Assembly: GCA_964016885.1 (NCBI GenBank)
Contig: OZ024741.1
Coordinates: 127,968,001-128,032,000, forward strand
Origin: Eledone cirrhosa
Taxonomy: Eukaryota
Length of the DNA stretch: 64,000 nucleotides
Reading direction: 5' to 3'
Both the position numbers and the translations under genes were made by a program. A model generated the notes under the pieces. It was not told the DNA's origin. It saw only the letters and a program-made list of their open reading frames with translations, and made no database searches. Positions 48,919 to 62,447 of the stretch are shown in pieces (position 1 is the first letter of the stretch; the number at the start of each line of letters is the position of its first letter).

Positions 48919-50145
48919 TTAATTGTAAGTTGTGATGTTGCTGTTCCACTCATGTTTTCTATTTAATTTTGGTTGTAATTCATTTATGTTTATTGCCTCT
49001 GTGATTTGTCTAAACATTGCGTCTTTTCTGTGTGTAGATTCTATTTTTATTTCTATGTTCTCTAATCTACCCATGTGTTCTATTTTAGCATGTTGGTAGA
49101 GTACAGATGATTCTTTACTATCTTGAAGGTCTCGCCAGTGTTCATTTATCCGTTCCCCTATACTACGAGCTGTCTCACCTAAGTACACTATATTTTTATC
49201 TCTACATTGTCCTTCAGTACATCTTATGCTATATACTACATTTCTAGTTTTACAGTTAATATGGGGGCTTAATTTACAGATTATACATTTCTTATCTATA
49301 CAGGGAGGTCTTTGAAAAGGGTATGTATTGCTAATAAGTGTTTTTATGGAGGTACCTGGTCTTTCTACTGTCTTAATATTGAGTTTATGTTTATCTAGGG
49401 CCCTTCTAAATTTGTAAGGTAATTCACCTCTAGGGGTTGTATCGATGAACATTACACTCTGGTATTTATTGCTATAATACCATGAGTTTATTCTATTAGC
49501 CTTATTCCTAGTTCTTTCTATTCTATTCCAAAATTTGCTCCTATACAAGGGGCAGGTCACATTTGTGTCATTATTTACCATTTTTTTCCATTTGGTTCTG
49601 GCTCCTCTATACACTCTGATTTTATCTTTCTGATTGTAACCGGAGAACTGCATACGGTGGATGAAGTGTTGTATGTGTCTCTCTAGTTCTTCGGGGTTGC
49701 AAATGCGGGACACGTTTCTCATCACCCGTACCAAATCCGCAATCAGTATGTTGATTTTGGTATGGTCCGAAACAGCTGAGTTTCGGTGGGTCAGATATTT
49801 GGAAGTCATGGGTTTGGCATAATGGGAATGGGGGATTTTTTTTTTGTTATTAATGGTATCTAACCAGAGCTCTGTGTCTAGTACAGGTAATCGATGGTTG
49901 GGGTGTTTTCTTGGGTAGTCTATAGTAACTCTAATACTCTGGTGTATAGTAACTCTAATACTCTGGTGGATGGAGTTAGCTATTTGCTGGACGCTTTCCA
50001 TTGTGTTTTTCTCTAATTCCTGACTGTTCTCTAGTGGGGGTGTTTTAACTACGATGTTTATATCATCAACGTAGTGGGAGTACATTATCAGGGTTAAGGG
50101 GTCTTCTAATTGTTCTTTAAGTTTAAGTTTAAGTCTACTGTCCCA
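48919..50145 (-). pseudogene. PLE RT C-terminal half + GIY-YIG endonuclease (open frame, no authentic start)
   Basis: YVDD, LPVLD, YAKP, MQFSGY, CxxxxCxxC, VVYSIRC..YLGETARSIGER..EH..RQITEA..LNRKHEW; the predicted N-terminus 50146-50202 comes from the inverted pLTR; 24-bp in-frame duplication HQSIRVTI x2. Confidence 0.9.
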
Positions 50146-50488
50146 GAGAACATAGAAATAAAAATAGAATCTACACACAGAAAAGACGCAATGTTTAGAC
50201 AAATCACAGAGGCAATAAACATAAATGAATTACAACCAAAATTAAATAGAAAACATGAGTGGAACAGCAACATCATAACTTACAATTAAGGACAAAATGA
50301 AAACACACACGCACATAGAACAAACAACCAACCAGTAACATGTAAATAAACAAATAAATAAACGAATTAAACACACACAGACACCCGGATGTAAGACATG
50401 CACAAACTAAGCACACAACACACACACACAAACAAGATGGCGTAGGACAGAACAAAGGAGAGGCACAAAACAAAGAAAAGAATCCCCA

Positions 50489-54322: not shown

Positions 54323-54924
54323 CGGCCTCCACCCACTTTCCTGTCGCCACAGTGCCGGCCGCCTTCTACGGCATGCTGCCCTTAACGAGATCATTAAGCA
54401 TGGCTTGGACGCTGCAGGCTTCCCCTCCCAGCTCGAGGGGATGGAAAAAGGTCAGACGGTATGACCATCTTTCCGTTCCGCGGTGGCAAACCCCTCGTCT
54501 GGGATGCCTCTTGCAGCGACACTTTCTGCAGCCGCAACCTGGTGCAGTCTGCAACTAACCCAGGTACTGCTGCACATCGGGCTGAGGAGGCCAAACTCTC
54601 CAAGTACCGGTCGCTCTCCAACAAGTTCGCGGTCGTGCCCTTGGCAGTGGAGACTTCTGGTGTCCTCGGCCCTAGGGCTACCTCCCTATTCGCCACCATA
54701 GGCGCTGAGCTGGCCAGCCGCAGGTGTGAGCCTCGCGAGTTGGAATGGATCTTCCAGCGCATCTCCCTTACCATCCTCCGGGGAAACGACTTCTCGATCC
54801 TGTCCGCTGGGGCTGTGGGGTGGTCAGCACGTGGGACCCCATTTGCTCACCATATGGATTACTAGGCAAAGTTATAAACTATTGTAAATAAACCTATTTA
54901 ACTGTAAAAAAAAGAAAAAAGAAA
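54323..54924 (+). mobile_element. CRE-type non-LTR retrotransposon 3' fragment (Zn finger, restriction-like endonuclease, A-rich tail)
   Basis: [22 protein letters not shown]; DGKRSDG; GKPLVWD..DT..AEEAKLSKY..PLAVETSG..FQRISLTILRGN; aataaa then an A-run at ~54906. Confidence 0.85.
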
Positions 54925-55254: not shown

Positions 55255-55342
<88 letters not shown>

Positions 55343-55344
55343 CA

Positions 55345-55711
55345 TGTCCACTACCACTACCACATGGATATACACACTACCTTTCATACTTTACACAAAA
55401 TACATTTAAAAACAACACACGTTTAAGCATACACTTACACTCACACAGATATCGACACTAATACACTCACACTCCACTTTGCGTTCCAACGCGTTACCAA
55501 GACTACCCAACGGTTTGTCTTGTTTTCACTCTTCATTTTTGATTTTTTTTCTTTACTTGAACTTCCTTTATTTCTGGTCCTCCTTTGTGATCCTGTCTCT
55601 ATTTTATACTCCCGAAGAAGGGCTTAAGCCCGACACGTCGAACTTTATTTCCCCTTTTCAATATAAAGCGTGAAACTAATAAGACTTTTTTTGTACCTCT
55701 GTTTGTTGTCT

Positions 55712-55715
<4 letters not shown>
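55345..55715 (+). mobile_element. Short pLTR-like element between (TA)n tracts, degenerate hammerhead at ~55608-55643
   Basis: CCGAAGA a GGGC ttaa GCCC GACA cg tc; downstream aagcgtgaaactaata as at 47270. Confidence 0.5.
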
Positions 55716-55781
<66 letters not shown>

Positions 55782-55929
55782 GAATTAGGATTTCGCTTGA
55801 AGCATAGCTTTATACAATATATATAAATATTTCGTATCTCCAAAGGAATACGGTTTTAGGAAGCCGTAGCTATGCAAACACCGGGGGGCTAACTCCCTCT
55901 GGTGATGTCCAGCAGAAGCAAGGGGGACA

Positions 55930-55973
55930 ACCGACTATGCATTTCAGGCTTAACTGGCCTTCGTCAGGACGGT
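55930..55973 (-). ncRNA. Minimal type I hammerhead ribozyme
   Basis: Minus strand: accgtc CTGACGA AGGC cagttaa GCCT GAA ATGCAT A gtcggt; palindromic stem III. Confidence 0.75.
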
Positions 55974-56349
55974 CCCTCCCACCGCTTGCGACTGCTGGAC
56001 TAGAAGACAGCTGAGAATATATACTTTTCTCGTCTGTGTAAATGAGGTGATTAATCTCATTTGCATATGAAGCTGCATAAGTTGGCTCAACTTATAATAA
56101 AAAAGAAATAGGATTTCGCTTCAAGCATAGCTTTATACAATATGTATAAATATTTCGTATCTCCAAAGAAATACGGTTTTAGGAAGCCGTCGCTATGCTT
56201 GAAGCGAAATCCTATTTCTTTTTTATTATAAGTTGAGCCAACTTATGCAGCTTCATATGCAAATGAGATTAATCACCTCATTTACACAGACGATAAAAGT
56301 ATATATTCTCAGCTGTCTTCTAGTCCAGCAGTCGCAAGCGGTGGGAGGG

Positions 56350-56393
56350 ACTGTCCTGACGATGGCCAGTTAAGCCTGAAATGCATAGTCGGT
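56350..56393 (+). ncRNA. Minimal type I hammerhead ribozyme (stem II A>T mismatch)
   Basis: actgtc CTGACGA tggc cagttaa gcct GAA ATGCAT A gtcggt. Confidence 0.65.
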
Positions 56394-56615
56394 TGTCTTT
56401 CTTGCTTCTGCTGGACATCACCAGAGGGCGTTAGCCCCCCGGTGTTTGCATATATATATATATTGTTATAATTTGGGAGGGTCATGTTGCCAATAAGAAA
56501 CACACGTACCAGTTGCTTTCACTCCAATTTATTATAAATTAAATTTATAAATTTAAGAATTTATAAATTTCCGGTTGGTTAGTTGGTTCCACAACCGGAC
56601 GGTTGTTCATATATT

Positions 56616-56658
56616 GTCAAAGTTCTTTCGTCACACATTCTGTGACCTCTTCAGTGAC
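56616..56658 (-). ncRNA. Minimal type I hammerhead in PLE pLTR (intact)
   Basis: Reverse complement of gtca CTGAAGA g GTCACA gaatg TGTGAC GAAA g aa c tt tgac. Confidence 0.75.
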
Positions 56659-59600
56659 TGGGGATTCTTCTCTTTGTTTTGTCCTCTCCTTTGTTCTGTC
56701 CTACGCCATCTTGTTTTTGTGTGTGTTGTGTGTTTCGGGTGCCTGTGTGTGTTTTTATTTGTTTATTTATTTGTTTATTTACATGTTACTGGTTGGTTGT
56801 TTGTTCTACGTGTGTGTGTTTTCATTTTGTCCTTAATTGTAAGTTGTGATGTTGCTATTCCATTCATGTTTTCTATTTAATTTTGGTTGGAGTTCATTTA
56901 TGTTTATTGCTTCTGTGATTTGTCTAAACATTGCGTCTTTTCTGTGTGTAGATTTTATTTTTATTTCTATGTTCTCTAATTTCCCCTTGTGTTCTATTTT
57001 AGCATGTTGGTGGAGTGCTGATGAATCTTTTCTATCTTGAATCTCTCGCCAGTGTTCATTTAATCGTTCTCCTATACTACGAGCTGTCTCACCTATGTAC
57101 ACTATATTCTTATCTTTACATTGTCCTTCAGTACATCTTATGCTATATACTATGTTTTTAGTTTTACAGTTAATATGGGGGCTTAGTTTACAGATTATGC
57201 ATTTCTTATCTATACAGGGAGGTCTTTGAAAAGGGTATGTATTACTAATAAGTGTTTTTATAGAGGTACCTGGTCTTTCTACTATCTCTAATATTTAGTT
57301 TAAGTTTATCTAGAGCCCTTCTAAATTTGTAAGATAATTCACCTCTAGGGGTTGTATTGATGAACATTACACTCTGGTATTTATTGCTATCATACCATGA
57401 GTTTATTCTATTAATCTTATTCCTAGTTCTTTCTATTCTATTCCAAAATTTGCTCCTATACAAAGGGCAGGTCCCATTTGTATCATTATTTACCATTTTT
57501 TCCTATTTGGTTCTGGCTCCTCTATATACTCTGATTTTATCTCTCTGATTGTAACCGGAGAACTCCATACGGTGGATGAAATGCTGTATGTGTCTCTCTA
57601 GTTCTTTGGGGTTGCACATGCGGGACACGTTTCTCATCACCCATACTAAATCCGCAATCAGTATGTTGATTTTGGTGTGATCCGAAACAGCTGAGTTTCG
57701 GTGGATCAGATATTTGGAAGTCATGGGTTTGGCATAATGGGAATGGAGGATTTGTTTTTTGTTATTAATGGTTTCTAACCAGAGCTCTGTGTCTAGTACA
57801 GGTAATCGATGGTTGGGGTGTTTGCTTGGGTAGTCTATAGTAACTCTAATACTCTGGTGGATGGAGTTAGCTATTTGCTGGATGCTTTCCATGGTGTTTT
57901 TCTCTAATTCCTGACTGTTCTCTAGTGGGGTGTTTTTACTATGATGTTTATATCATCAACGTAGCGAGAGTACATTATCAGGGTTAAGAGGTTGCTGTCT
58001 TCTAATTTTTCTTTGAGTTTAAGTTTAAGTTTATTGTCCCACCATACCATGAATAGGTTAGCTATGTCACCTGCAATGCTAACACCAATGGTTGCTCCCT
58101 CCTCTTGGGCATATGTTTTTGCATTAAATTTGAACATATGTTCCTTAAGGGTTAGATTTATACTGGCCCCCACCGCATGTGCAATTATTTTCTTTAGTTC
58201 ATCGTGATTTTCGGGGGTCTGTATGGCTCTGGTCCACCCGTTCCATCTTTCTGTGTGGGTTTTCTTGGCCATTGAGGTAATGGTAGGTGGTGTGCCTCTT
58301 GCTGGCCTTGTGGGGGCAGAGGTTGCTAAGGTCATATGTATCTAGATAATTATTACTATAGGTAAGTTTAAGTAGGAGTCCCAGCTCACTGGCATCAATA
58401 TCACAGAATACAACATTGCTCTCACTGAGCATTTCTACGTATTTCTCCACAGCAAAATCCACGTCAATGGATGGGTATAGGGACACAACATCCGTACTAC
58501 CTATTATACAGTCTGTTAGGTCCCTAGATCGGTTATTTTCATTGATTCTGCTGAGGAGGTCCTCCGTGCTGTCACATATATCCGGGGACATTTCAATGAC
58601 GGGGCGTACCATCAGGGAGATGAAGTAGGCAAATCTGTAGTTACTAGAAATGTTAGCTCCACAGACTGGCCGTTTTGGTGGTCCTGTGACTGGGTCGCTG
58701 TTCGTCTTATGGTCTTTTCGAAGCCCATACAACGCTGGCACGTCATTGTTCCAGGCCTGGAAGTTGTTGGCAGTCCGTTTATTGGGCTGCATTATGTTTG
58801 TCCACATCATCATATGAGCATTGAGGGTTTTCTCCCTATCCTCATGCTCTTTTGGTGTTACTTCTCTTGTGTTAGTGATGTGGGGTTGCATTGCCTGGAT
58901 GTAGTTTGGCAGACTGTCAACCGACATTCTGCCAGACTTGTCTTTTGGAAAGCATGCAATCTCTCCATTACGTGAGCGCTGCATGAGCTTATGCAAGCCA
59001 TTTGCAGATTTTTCTCCCAGTTGCTGGGCCTCCATTCTATCTTGCTTCTTGCTATACTGTTCTATAATATTTCTAAGTTTAGATCTAGCTATACTAAATT
59101 GTGCTTCTGTTTGTTCATAGACCTGCGACGGCAATTGCGTGCGTTTGTTAAAAGCTAAAGTCGTGGCGTGGACTCGTCGTAGGTCGAAGGACATATCGGA
59201 AGGATTATAAAAAGTAGAATTCCAGGCTGCTACCTTATGTGTACTATTGCTATTGTTATTGTTAGTTGTGTTGTTTCGATTTCTATTTCCACCAACAGCC
59301 TCATGGTTGTTTCTATGTCTCTCATTATTACTCCTGCCTCTTTCCTCTGGCTCATTGTTATTATCTACTCTATTTTGTGTGTCTGTGTGTTCGTCCTGGT
59401 TATTTTCTCTGTCAGTATCGATAGTCCCCCTTCTTCTTTCAATCCTATTACCTTCCCTTACTTCTGTGTTACTGTCATTATCTGGTTTCTGTGTCTGTGT
59501 GGCTGTTAAGATTGTGGTGGTGGTGAGAGGCATACGATGTGTGTGTGTTGTTGTTGTTGTTGTTGTTGTTGTGTGTTGTTGATGTGTGTTGTTGTTGTTG

Positions 59601-59766
59601 TCTCCGTGTATGTTGTTATTATTGTTGTGTGTGTTGTTGTTGTTATTGTTGTTTGTGTCTGTGTGTCTGTTGTTGTTGTCTCTGTGTATGTTATTATTTT
59701 TGTTGTGTGTGTTGTTGTTGTTATCGTTGTTTGTGTCTGTGTGTCTGTTGTTGTTGGGATGTGTGT

Positions 59767-59859
<93 letters not shown>

Positions 59860-60778
59860 ATGTTGTTACTTTTGTTTTGGTTTTTTGTTGTTGGTGTTTT
59901 TGAGGCTCCAACGTAATTTTGTAAATGATTTTTCTATTTCTGACAAGCATCTTATCATATTTACCTTATTATATGTGGCATATTTAGGTGGTAGCTCTAA
60001 TATGGATAGTTCATCAGGGTCTACTGTAGTGTTGCCGTATATATTTGTGTTGTTGTTGTTGAATTCATCTGTTAATGAGATGTCGGCCATGTTTATACCC
60101 TCAATCCTATCTGGATATTTATCTCTATTCTCTGAAGTTTCTTGGTTTAGTTTCATCTTTTTGAGCCACTTTAATTTCTTGTTAAAGTGTTTGTTGCATT
60201 CTTGGATGATGTACTTTTCTTCTTCGCGTATAATGTTTATGAATTCTAATTTTTCACTTGGTGTGGTGATCTTAGTTATATCTTGTATTAGGTTACGCTT
60301 ATGTTTTTCTTGATGACTTAATTCTCTGTAAATCTTCTTTTTTATGTTTAGAATTAGTGTTCGTTTTAGCCTATCTGCTTGTTTTTTGGTAAGCTGTAAT
60401 CTTCAGAACAGATTCATCAGTACTCCACCAACATGCTAAAATAGAACATAAGGGGAAATTAGAGAACAGAAATAAAAATAAAATCTACACACAGAAAAGA
60501 CGCAATGTTTAGACAAATCACAGAAGCAATAAACATAAATTAACTCCAACCAAAATTAAATAGAAAACATGAATGGAATAGCAACATCACAACTTACAAT
60601 TAAGGACAAAATGAAAACACACACACATAGAACAAACAACCAACCAGTAACATGTAAATAAACAAATAAATAAACAAATAAAAACACACACAGACACCCG
60701 AAACACACAACACACACAAAAACAAGATGGCGTAGGACAGAACAAAGGAGAGGCACAAAACAAAGAGAAGAATCCCCA

Positions 60779-60821
60779 GTCACTGAAGAGGTCACAGAAT
60801 GTGTGACGAAAGAACTTTGAC
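60779..60821 (+). ncRNA. Minimal type I hammerhead in inverted pLTR (intact)
   Basis: gtca CTGAAGA g GTCACA gaatg TGTGAC GAAA g aa c tt tgac. Confidence 0.75.
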
Positions 60822-61033
60822 AATATATGAACAACCGTCCGGTTGTGGAACCAACCAACCAACCGGAAATTTATAAATTCTTAAATTTATAAATTTAATT
60901 TATAATAAATTGGAGTCAAAGCAACTGGTGCGTGTGTTTCTTATTGGCAACATGACCCTCCCAAAGTATAACAATATCGGTTTCAACACACGTTTTCAGA
61001 TAAAGAATCTTGCTAAACAAATTCAGAAACAAA

Positions 61034-61224: not shown

Positions 61225-62447
61225 TGATGTGACATCGTGCTAAGTTCAATATCTTAATAGCCGCCCTGGTAAGGGTGACAGGAAATGTGTCCCACAAGTG
61301 CGACCCAACAGAGTTAAAGAGACACATACAGCACTTTATCCACCGCATGCAGTTCTCTGGTTATAACCAAAGGGACAGGATCAGGGTGTACAAAGGAGCC
61401 ATGGCTAAATTCAAAACCATTATGGAGAATGATATGAAGGGGATTTGCCTACTATACAGGAGCAAATCATGTGGTAGCATATAGAGAACTAGGAAAAAAT
61501 TAGGCAAGGCCAACTCATGGTATGGCAGCCCAAAATACCAGAGTGTCATATTCGTCGATGCTACCCCAAGAGACGAACAAGCGTATCGTTTTTAGAAGAG
61601 CTTTAGACAAAATTAACCTTAGGATTAAAGTAGTAGAAAAAATAGGAACCACCATAAAATCCCGAACCAGTAGGACATGCCCCATTCGGAAAACCCCTTT
61701 TTACTGATAGAAATTGTATATTCTGTAAGATAAGCCCACGTATAAACTGTAAAACTAGAACTGTAATCTATAGGATAAGATGTAAAGAGGGACGATACAG
61801 AAACAAGACAACGACATATATAGGAGAGACATCCCATAGTATAGGAGAGAGATTAAAGCAACTCTGGCGAGAACTTAGGGAGGACAAATGCTCATCAGTG
61901 CTATACCAACATGCCAAACTAGAGCACGAGGGCTCAAGAGATAACAAAGAAATAAAGATCCTATCCATATATAGAACTGAAGCAACAATCAGACAAATTA
62001 AGGAGGCCACTCACACAATAGAAAATAGCCCTAGCCTGAACAGAAAACACGATTGTAATAGTAACACTCCGCAACTTAATCACTGAAGACGGAATAGAAA
62101 AAAAAAGACACAAACAGTAAAACAGCAAACAATAAAAACCCCTATACACATAAAACACACATAGACATGACAAACACAAAAAACACATATACACACATAG
62201 AAACGCAGAGACAAAACACGAAAAACTCTCTACAAAACAAAGACAAGATAGTACAGGAGTTTAAGACTAGGATAAAGACGAGGCACAAAACAGACAGTCA
62301 TTGAGGAGGTCACAAATGTGTGTCGAAAGAACTTTGACAAATGAATGAGTAACGAACAATAAAAATAAAGTTAAAATTAAAATTATATGGTGGGTGTGTT
62401 TCTTTCTATTGGCAATATTGGCAACATGACCATTCCCAAATATAACA

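What the first reader, a model, noticed from the sequence alone, without database searches (positions are those of the whole stretch)
55778..56452. Retrozyme-like palindrome: 321-bp permuted monomer plus inverted copy, two hammerheads, no ORF
Seen: a ~90-bp direct repeat at 321-bp spacing (about 1.3 monomers), then a 261-bp inverted arm. The switch occurs at gctatgc, whose complement gcatagc ends the left arm. Each arm holds CUGACGA-stem II-GAA-AUGCAU-A with a self-complementary stem III. The sequence is unrelated to the adjacent PLE pLTR, yet it abuts that PLE across a short (TA)n. Known: non-LTR retrozymes are ~170-400-bp HHR-bearing tandem monomers producing circular RNA and are proposed to use PLE machinery; minimal HHRs with a palindromic stem III act as dimers (Cervera and de la Pena). 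Inference: a young non-autonomous retrozyme/PLE parasite copied from a circular or tandem RNA with a microhomology template switch.
Basis: partly seen in the sequence, partly recalled or inferred. Interest (0 to 1): 0.75.

Follow-up and report, generated by a model that had tools for sequence, protein, structure and literature searches.

The report
Hammerhead retrozyme with Penelope-type insertion ends
This is one mildly damaged copy of a 323-base non-coding repeat, present in hundreds of scattered copies, that carries a predicted self-cutting RNA motif and was likely pasted into a TA repeat by a Penelope-type jumping gene's enzyme; it is a known kind of element whose back-to-back copies give a clear, testable picture of how it likely moves.

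Summary
Real, and a new member of a known kind (animal non-LTR retrozyme). The monomer is 323 bp, not 321. The hammerhead is the canonical type I form, not the minimal PLE form, and the two motifs lie on opposite strands, so this copy cannot cut out a monomer. The family has 456 exact ribozyme-core matches in the genome. An older subfamily keeps stems I and II through compensatory changes. In 71 position-ordered loci none runs into a PLE ORF; 44 are palindromes. Their outer ends fall at two fixed sites about 40 nt apart, one per side (30 of 32 classifiable pairs), the PLE 'tail' signature. Arms often exceed one monomer; one array has about 10. Best reading: a PLE enzyme primes two cDNAs from both sides of a cut TA tract on a circular or multimeric RNA and joins them by microhomology. 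No RNA or cleavage data exist here, and the helper PLE is unidentified. The scan already noted the same kind and two-site rule for other repeat families in this genome.

The parts
55715..55777 (.). (TA)n tract, left target flank
   Evidence: 46 of 51 site-A ends have (TA)4 within 30 nt vs 8.6% of background tiles
55780..56102 (-). Full 323-bp monomer (q1-q323 numbered on + strand); RNA sense is the minus strand; outer 3' end at family site A (q1)
55930..55973 (-). Canonical type I hammerhead motif, left arm: stem I 55973-55968 with 55935-55930, stem II 55960-55957 with 55949-55946, 1-bp stem III with UGCA loop; predicted cut between 55936 and 55935; U.U mismatch at 55934
56103..56198 (-). Second, 5'-truncated round of the monomer (q1-q96), head to tail with the first
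56192..56198 (.). 7-bp microhomology GCTATGC at the inversion joint (q90-96 equals reverse complement of q23-29)
56192..56452 (+). Inverted arm (q29-q1, then q323-q92); crosses the monomer junction; outer end at q92 instead of the usual site B (q25-47)
56350..56393 (+). Hammerhead motif of the inverted arm; predicted cut between 56387 and 56388; U.U mismatches in stem I and at the base of stem II (56363/56377)
56450..56463 (.). (TA)7, right flank, shared with the 3' end of the neighbouring PLE
56460..60977 (-). Neighbour, not part of the element: broken Neptune-like PLE (RT + C-terminal GIY-YIG) with inverted 5' pLTR and its own minimal-type hammerheads at 56654 (-) and 60783 (+)
55340..55715 (+). 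Neighbour, not part of the element: 3' end of an older, unrelated PLE-type family with a variant hammerhead-like motif near 55610-55645

Best explanation
The stretch is one insertion of a dispersed, non-coding 323-bp repeat family with a conserved type I hammerhead motif, and it was likely written into a (TA)n tract by the reverse transcriptase-endonuclease of a Penelope-like element acting on a circular or multimeric RNA of the repeat. Shown: family, monomer, tandem junction, two fixed outer ends, TA targets, covarying stems, no ORF. Inferred: a source copy with two or more hammerheads is transcribed, cuts itself (likely as a dimer through the palindromic stem III) and is ligated to a 323-nt circle; the PLE protein cuts both strands in (TA)n; each free 3' end primes a cDNA, one at site A (q1) and one at site B (about q32-43); each cDNA runs around the circle for a variable length; the two meet and are joined at a short microhomology, giving the back-to-back palindrome. 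This copy is likely a dead end: one hammerhead per strand, a weakened stem I, and a 261-bp self-complementary arm.
For: 456 exact core matches, control 0; 2231 first-look candidates. 55 of 125 arms cross the q323/q1 junction, 43 exceed one monomer, 9 hold two cut sites; 242 exact junction matches; an array of about 10 monomers ends at site B and all 10 share 2 variants. 109 of 125 outer ends are at site A or B; 30 AB, 1 AA, 1 BB among 44 palindromes, 12 with a non-standard end. A 7-nt TATATAT word at q238-244 is never used as an end, so TA microhomology alone does not set the sites. Neither arm is regularly the longer (A 14, B 17 of 31), against fold-back copying. Arms of one locus share 34 variants vs 8.5 on permutation, maximum 21. 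Four of 11 helix pairs change on both sides across subfamilies, 92.5% of cells paired, slid controls 11-46%. Circle fold z -3.5 vs 100 shuffles. Bona fide PLEs here show the same two-end pattern. Literature: PMC7229834, PMC4209133, PMC8557442, PMC11167929.
Against: No RNA evidence and no cleavage assay. The helper PLE was not found: no sequence similarity to the three PLE-type families examined, and their two ends lie about 55 and 65-70 nt apart rather than about 40. Long arms could also come from transcripts of genomic dimers or arrays, or from RT jumps between linear monomers, so circularity is not proven. The 10-mer array also has variants shared by only 2-4 monomers (44 of 151 variant alleles), which allows later local duplication. 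Covariation reflects few subfamily-level events, and the tool warns that relatedness inflates it. The hammerhead region alone folds no better than shuffles (z -0.65 to -1.37), and both window copies prefer another fold. The window's right end (q92) is atypical. The 71-locus sample is conditioned on an intact core and covers one chromosome.
Confidence: 0.82

Rival explanations
1. The unit is the orphaned pseudo-LTR of an autonomous PLE that is rare, lost or too diverged to find; the copies are 5'-truncated or ORF-deleted PLE ends rather than an independent RNA circle.
For: Architecture (partial tandem, 5' inverted copy, 30-40 bp tail at one end, TA target) is that of PLE ends (PMC8557442). Xenopus retrozymes are often homologous to pLTRs (24 of 57 families matched a TE, 21 of the 22 TEs being PLEs; bioRxiv 10.64898/2026.07.22.740005).
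Against: The 5' side of the monomer runs into another monomer, not an ORF; no shared 5' flank among 35 free 5' ends; none of 8 loci with PLE protein hits has the ORF contiguous upstream; 17 of 17 non-tandem upstream contexts and 30 of 43 non-TA downstream contexts examined show no common ORF; the hammerhead is canonical, unlike the minimal motif of the neighbouring PLE (PMC4209133); the non-coding tandem form persists across subfamilies of 323 and about 336 bp. A remote origin from a pLTR is not excluded.
Confidence: 0.08
2. Same element, but the template is a linear read-through transcript of genomic dimers or arrays (or linear monomers joined by RT jumps) and the hammerhead is dispensable for insertion.
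For: In vitro, hammerhead mutants of an anole PLE still insert and uncut RNA is the main substrate (PMC11167929). Dimers and a 10-mer exist as possible sources. 5' ends are not enriched at the cut site (4 of 125 vs 5 expected). A stem I mismatch allele occurs in both window arms and in L005.
Against: Compensatory stem changes imply selection on the fold in source lineages; many sub-lineages with their own variants would each need a multimeric source; successive rounds within one arm share variants (39 vs 15.6 expected, maximum 24).
Confidence: 0.2
3. The inverted arm arose by fold-back of one cDNA or by a DNA-level inverted duplication after insertion.
For: 7-bp microhomology at the joint; both arms share a rare allele at q155.
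Against: Inverted arms end at their own fixed site next to TA, are as often longer as shorter than the partner, and include sequence beyond the partner's outer end.
Confidence: 0.05
4. The palindrome is a read chimera or assembly artefact.
For: No listed short-read contig bridged this joint (inconclusive).
Against: Arms differ at 7 of 261 sites, the centre is asymmetric with a 60-bp spacer, and 44 of 71 loci have palindromes with different joints but the same two outer ends.
Confidence: 0.01

Closest known systems
Metazoan non-LTR retrozymes (Cervera and de la Pena 2020, PMC7229834; Li, Clavereau and Pollet 2026, bioRxiv 10.64898/2026.07.22.740005), closest in form to axolotl Rtz_331 / newt satellite (about 330 bp, 1-bp helix III with palindromic tetraloop) and mussel 350-390 bp repeats
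   Same: Non-coding monomer of 150-450 bp, GC below 50% (323 bp, 43%), one canonical type I hammerhead per monomer, head-to-tail copies, highly self-paired predicted circle, coexisting with PLEs.
   Different: Mostly dispersed 1-2-mer insertions in (TA)n with a back-to-back inverted copy and two fixed ends. 'Inverted' and 'microsatellite' occur 0 times in PMC7229834 and 'tail' 0 times in the 2026 preprint (supplements not seen). Expression and cleavage are not shown here.
Ends of EN+ Penelope-like elements (pLTR + tail; Craig et al. 2021, PMC8557442; Frangieh et al. 2024, PMC11167929)
   Same: Partial tandem, adjacent inverted 5'-truncated copy, 30-40 bp tail at one end only, microsatellite targets, internal RT start at two adjacent sites, both strands cut and extended.
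   Different: No RT-GIY-YIG ORF; canonical rather than minimal hammerhead; the whole unit is the repeat.
Putative non-autonomous Chlamys PLEs such as MRC1 of Chlamydomonas (PMC8557442, passage read)
   Same: Non-autonomous PLE passengers forming pLTRs and head-to-tail multimers.
   Different: Those resemble autonomous partners at the 3' end and mostly lack hammerheads; no partner similarity was found here.

Membership tests
Metazoan non-LTR retrozyme | Canonical type I hammerhead in each monomer | tested here: met
   Helix I 6 bp, II 4 bp, III 1 bp + UGCA; invariant core, compensatory stems; definition from PMC4209133. Window copies carry weakening mismatches.
Metazoan non-LTR retrozyme | Small monomer (150-450 bp), GC below 50%, no ORF | tested here: met
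   323 bp, 43% GC; no ORF of 120 aa or more; stops in all six frames of the doubled monomer.
Metazoan non-LTR retrozyme | Head-to-tail tandem organisation | tested here: met
   Family level: 55 of 125 arms cross the junction, 9 have two cut sites, 10-mer array. This copy has 1.3 monomers and would not meet the two-complete-hammerhead 'active' criterion of the 2026 preprint.
Metazoan non-LTR retrozyme | Highly self-paired predicted circle | tested here: met
   Circular MFE -92.8 vs shuffles -71.8 +/- 5.9, z -3.5, 100 shuffles folded the same way.
Metazoan non-LTR retrozyme | Expressed as linear and circular monomer RNA | not testable with these tools
   No RNA holder listed.
Metazoan non-LTR retrozyme | Self-cleavage (monomer or dimer) | not testable with these tools
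   Needs in vitro transcription.
Metazoan non-LTR retrozyme | No LTR, PBS or PPT; larger TSD when present | tested here: inconclusive
   No LTR structure seen; PBS and PPT not searched; a TSD cannot be read inside (TA)n.
Autonomous PLE (unit as its pLTR) | Linked RT + GIY-YIG ORF | tested here: not met
   0 of 71, 0 of 17 and 0 of 30 loci; probes were 10 PLE protein fragments from this genome plus flank-vs-flank BLAST.
Autonomous PLE (unit as its pLTR) | Minimal-type hammerhead (long helix II, extra base before it, short helix I) | tested here: not met
   Unit is canonical; the neighbouring PLE has the minimal type.
PLE-type insertion (works like) | Partial tandem plus adjacent inverted 5'-truncated copy | tested here: met
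   44 of 71 loci.
PLE-type insertion (works like) | 30-40 bp tail at only one end | tested here: met
   Sites A and B about 31-42 nt apart; 30 AB vs 2 same-site pairs, p 1e-7 against 0.5.
PLE-type insertion (works like) | Microsatellite (TA)n target | tested here: met
   46 of 51 A ends, 38 of 58 B ends, 1 of 16 other ends; background 8.6%.

The most novel reading that the evidence does not exclude
The family is a genomic record of a PLE enzyme performing two-sided, rolling-circle reverse transcription on a ribozyme-made RNA circle: two fixed start sites, one per DNA strand, both arms from one template lineage, up to ten rounds in one event, and occasional jumps between PLE RNA and retrozyme RNA (direct fusions at L103, L047, L029, L037). 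That would turn the proposed retrozyme-PLE link into a mechanism that a 323-nt RNA can test in vitro.
Probability: 0.35. Interest if true: 0.6.

Novelty: new member of a known kind. Interest (0 to 1): 0.35.

Why it matters
Which enzyme moves animal retrozymes, and how PLEs make their tandem/inverted ends and tails, are both open questions in the papers read. This family carries the PLE tail and inversion signature on a protein-free 323-nt unit, which supports PLE mobilisation by insertion anatomy rather than by co-occurrence alone and offers a minimal template for a PLE in vitro assay. The copy itself is likely inert, the element class is known, and other families in this genome were already noted by the scan with the same rule, so interest is moderate.

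Tried and rejected
Rfam scan: no hammerhead model hit, only miRNA-hairpin and TA-repeat noise below gathering score. RNA runs: no RNA holder listed; 4 runs of one study, kind not on record. Contigs laid on the locus: deep cover of the family, but no listed piece bridged the inversion joint with 31 letters each side; 413 pieces not shown, so inconclusive. Helper search: neighbouring Neptune-like family (37,525 candidates) has no similarity to the unit and a 55-nt end spacing; the PLE of L029 has about 65-70 nt; neither is shown to be the helper. Direct retrozyme-PLE fusions (L103, L047, L029, L037) fit template jumps but also deletions at a shared TA target; L017 is a 3'-to-3' fusion that a jump cannot explain. 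A recurring alternative upstream sequence looked like a parent ORF end but was a SINE-like repeat inserted into the unit in 10 of 17 loci. Non-TA sequence downstream of site A showed no common continuation in 30 of 43 matches examined. 5' ends are not enriched at the ribozyme cut site. Local folding z-scores of the hammerhead are not significant. Sequence look-up in earlier notes: no look-alike. One search failed on a syntax error and was rerun. No structure prediction or protein database search was run, as the element has no ORF.

Full report
Observation. The described structure is present. Positions are given as q1-q323 along 55780-56102 (+). The window holds q1-323, then q1-96 again (56103-56198), then an inverted arm q29-q1/q323-q92 (56192-56452). 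The period is 323 bp. The arms differ at 7 of 261 positions and the direct repeats at 5 of 96. The joint shares 7 bp. A hammerhead motif lies on the minus strand of the first monomer and on the plus strand of the arm. TA tracts flank both ends; beyond the right one lies a broken Neptune-like PLE (GIY-YIG above Pfam cut-off, weak RVT_1; clade label inferred from its CxxxxCxxC linker as described in PMC8557442) with no similarity to the unit.

Family. A genome search gave 2231 first-look candidates, 40 scored. The exact 33-nt ribozyme core occurs 456 times, reversed control 0. For a sample not chosen by similarity to the window I took the first 100 listed matches (all on contig C1): 71 distinct loci after dropping 5 duplicate loci and 8 places already held. 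Of these 44 are back-to-back palindromes and 27 single arms; arms average 94% identity to the family majority. An older subfamily of about 336 bp (3 of the 5 measured periods 336-339, the others 324 and 350) has the same organisation; 63 exact matches to its core pattern.

Ribozyme. By the definitions in PMC4209133 (parts 1-2 of 4 read) the motif is canonical type I: helix I 6 bp, helix II 4 bp, helix III one pair capped by palindromic UGCA, the form reported to need dimerisation; PMC7229834 (abstract, results parts 1-2 of 3, discussion read) describes the same helix III in an axolotl retrozyme. On 41 hand-picked sequences from both subfamilies (41 of 81 distinct motif regions found), 92.5% of cells pair, 4 of 11 pairs change on both sides, and slid controls give 11-46%. 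These are few independent events. In one search one stem II pair is G-C 23, A-U 25, G-U 11, A-C 4 of 63 (counted by eye). Against function of this copy: both arms have a U.U mismatch in stem I (majority allele in 27 of 30), the right arm a second one in stem II, and both prefer another fold while a typical copy folds stems I and II. The two motifs are on opposite strands, so no transcript of this locus has two cut sites.

No coding partner. No shared sequence lies upstream of 35 free 5' ends other than the element itself and unrelated repeats away from the junction. Eight of 71 loci have PLE protein hits; none is contiguous upstream. All 17 exact matches with a non-tandem upstream context lack an ORF; 10 have a SINE-like insertion. 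Thirty of 43 matches with unusual sequence after site A show no common continuation. These probes would miss a rare or diverged parent.

Insertion anatomy. Of 125 arms, 51 end at site A (q1), 58 at site B (q25-47, mostly q32-43) and 16 elsewhere. In 44 palindromes: 30 AB, 1 AA, 1 BB, 12 with a non-standard end. TA repeats lie within 30 nt of 46 of 51 A ends, 38 of 58 B ends, 1 of 16 others, and 8.6% of background tiles. PMC8557442 (abstract and passages read) describes partial tandems, an adjacent inverted copy and a 30-40 bp tail at one end for PLEs; PMC11167929 (parts 1-2 of 4 read) shows that a PLE protein cuts and extends both strands of AT-rich DNA and starts at two internal RNA sites that bound the tail, but found no difference in start site between strands in vitro and no need for hammerhead cleavage. 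The neighbouring PLE family has two ends 55 nt apart, another PLE family about 65-70 nt apart. Joints vary from locus to locus with overlaps mostly 0-4 bp, up to 19. Either arm may be longer (14 vs 17 of 31), so the inverted arm is not a copy of its partner. Arms of one locus share more variants than arms of different loci (34 vs 8.5, 0 of 5000 permutations as high; 28 palindromes), so both come from one template or source lineage; gene conversion between arms could contribute.

Circular template. 55 of 125 arms cross the monomer junction, 43 exceed one monomer and 9 span two cut sites. Among the 15 best dimer matches arms reach 2.7 monomers, and one array has about 10 monomers ending at site B. 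Its monomers are equally far apart whether adjacent or not (12.3% vs 11.9%) and all 10 share two variants, as one rolling-circle event would give, but 44 of 151 variant alleles are shared by 2-4 monomers, which allows later exchange. Transcripts of such multimers could equally serve as templates, so circularity is inferred.

Helper. Not identified. Direct fusions without TA join the unit to the Neptune-like family (L103, L047) and to a second PLE family (L029, L037, L017). Four fit RT jumps, but deletions at a shared target explain them too, and L017 needs that explanation. The Neptune-like family has 37,525 candidates, so adjacency in the window is unsurprising. The window's right end at q92 is one of the 13% non-standard ends and may have been trimmed.

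Comparison and novelty. It meets the testable sequence criteria for animal non-LTR retrozymes and works like a PLE insertion; it fails the test for an autonomous PLE end. The 2026 preprint (parts 1-3 of 5 read, supplements closed) already argues that animal retrozymes are non-autonomous PLE derivatives. Searches for octopus + hammerhead ribozyme + Penelope and cephalopod + retrozyme each listed only PMC8557442; a search for retrozyme with inverted, microsatellite, Penelope and tail (4 of 5 terms; 15 of 49 listed, listing only) showed no paper on this point by title; term counts in the two retrozyme papers found no description of inverted arms or tails. Supplements were not seen. Earlier scan notes report the same kind of element and two-site rule for other families in this genome, unchecked by me beyond this family. 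Verdict: new member of a known kind, interest 0.35.

Noticed in passing
L181, L183-L186, L188, L190, L191, L193, L194: A SINE-like repeat of about 180 bp sits at the same AT-rich site of the retrozyme (near q310-319) in 10 of 17 loci selected by pattern, in both subfamilies, with different 5' truncations and apparent target duplications: an insertion hot spot. The pattern favoured its 3' end.
   Followed up: partly
window 55340-55715 (+): 3' end of an older PLE-type family (2364 candidates, 82-90% identity) whose hammerhead-like motif has GACAC in place of GAAAC in most of the copies viewed; weak GIY-YIG hits upstream in 2 of 12 loci.
   Followed up: partly
window 56460-60977; L092-L120: Very abundant Neptune-like PLE (37,525 candidates) with two 3' ends 55 nt apart, inverted 5' pLTR and a minimal-type hammerhead; further copies at 48919-50300 and 61240-62090.
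   Followed up: partly
L103:1103-2757: 1016 bp of the Neptune-like 3' end fused without TA, same sense, to the retrozyme at q236, followed by an inverted arm; possible RT jump between helper and passenger RNA.
   Followed up: partly
L241 (G000:C2:83920630-83923934): Array of about 10 monomers ending at site B; candidate source locus, though 5-11% diverged.
   Followed up: partly
window 54398-54865 (+); L006: C-terminal fragment of another retroelement-like ORF (no Pfam hit); similar sequence abuts the retrozyme in L006.
   Followed up: no
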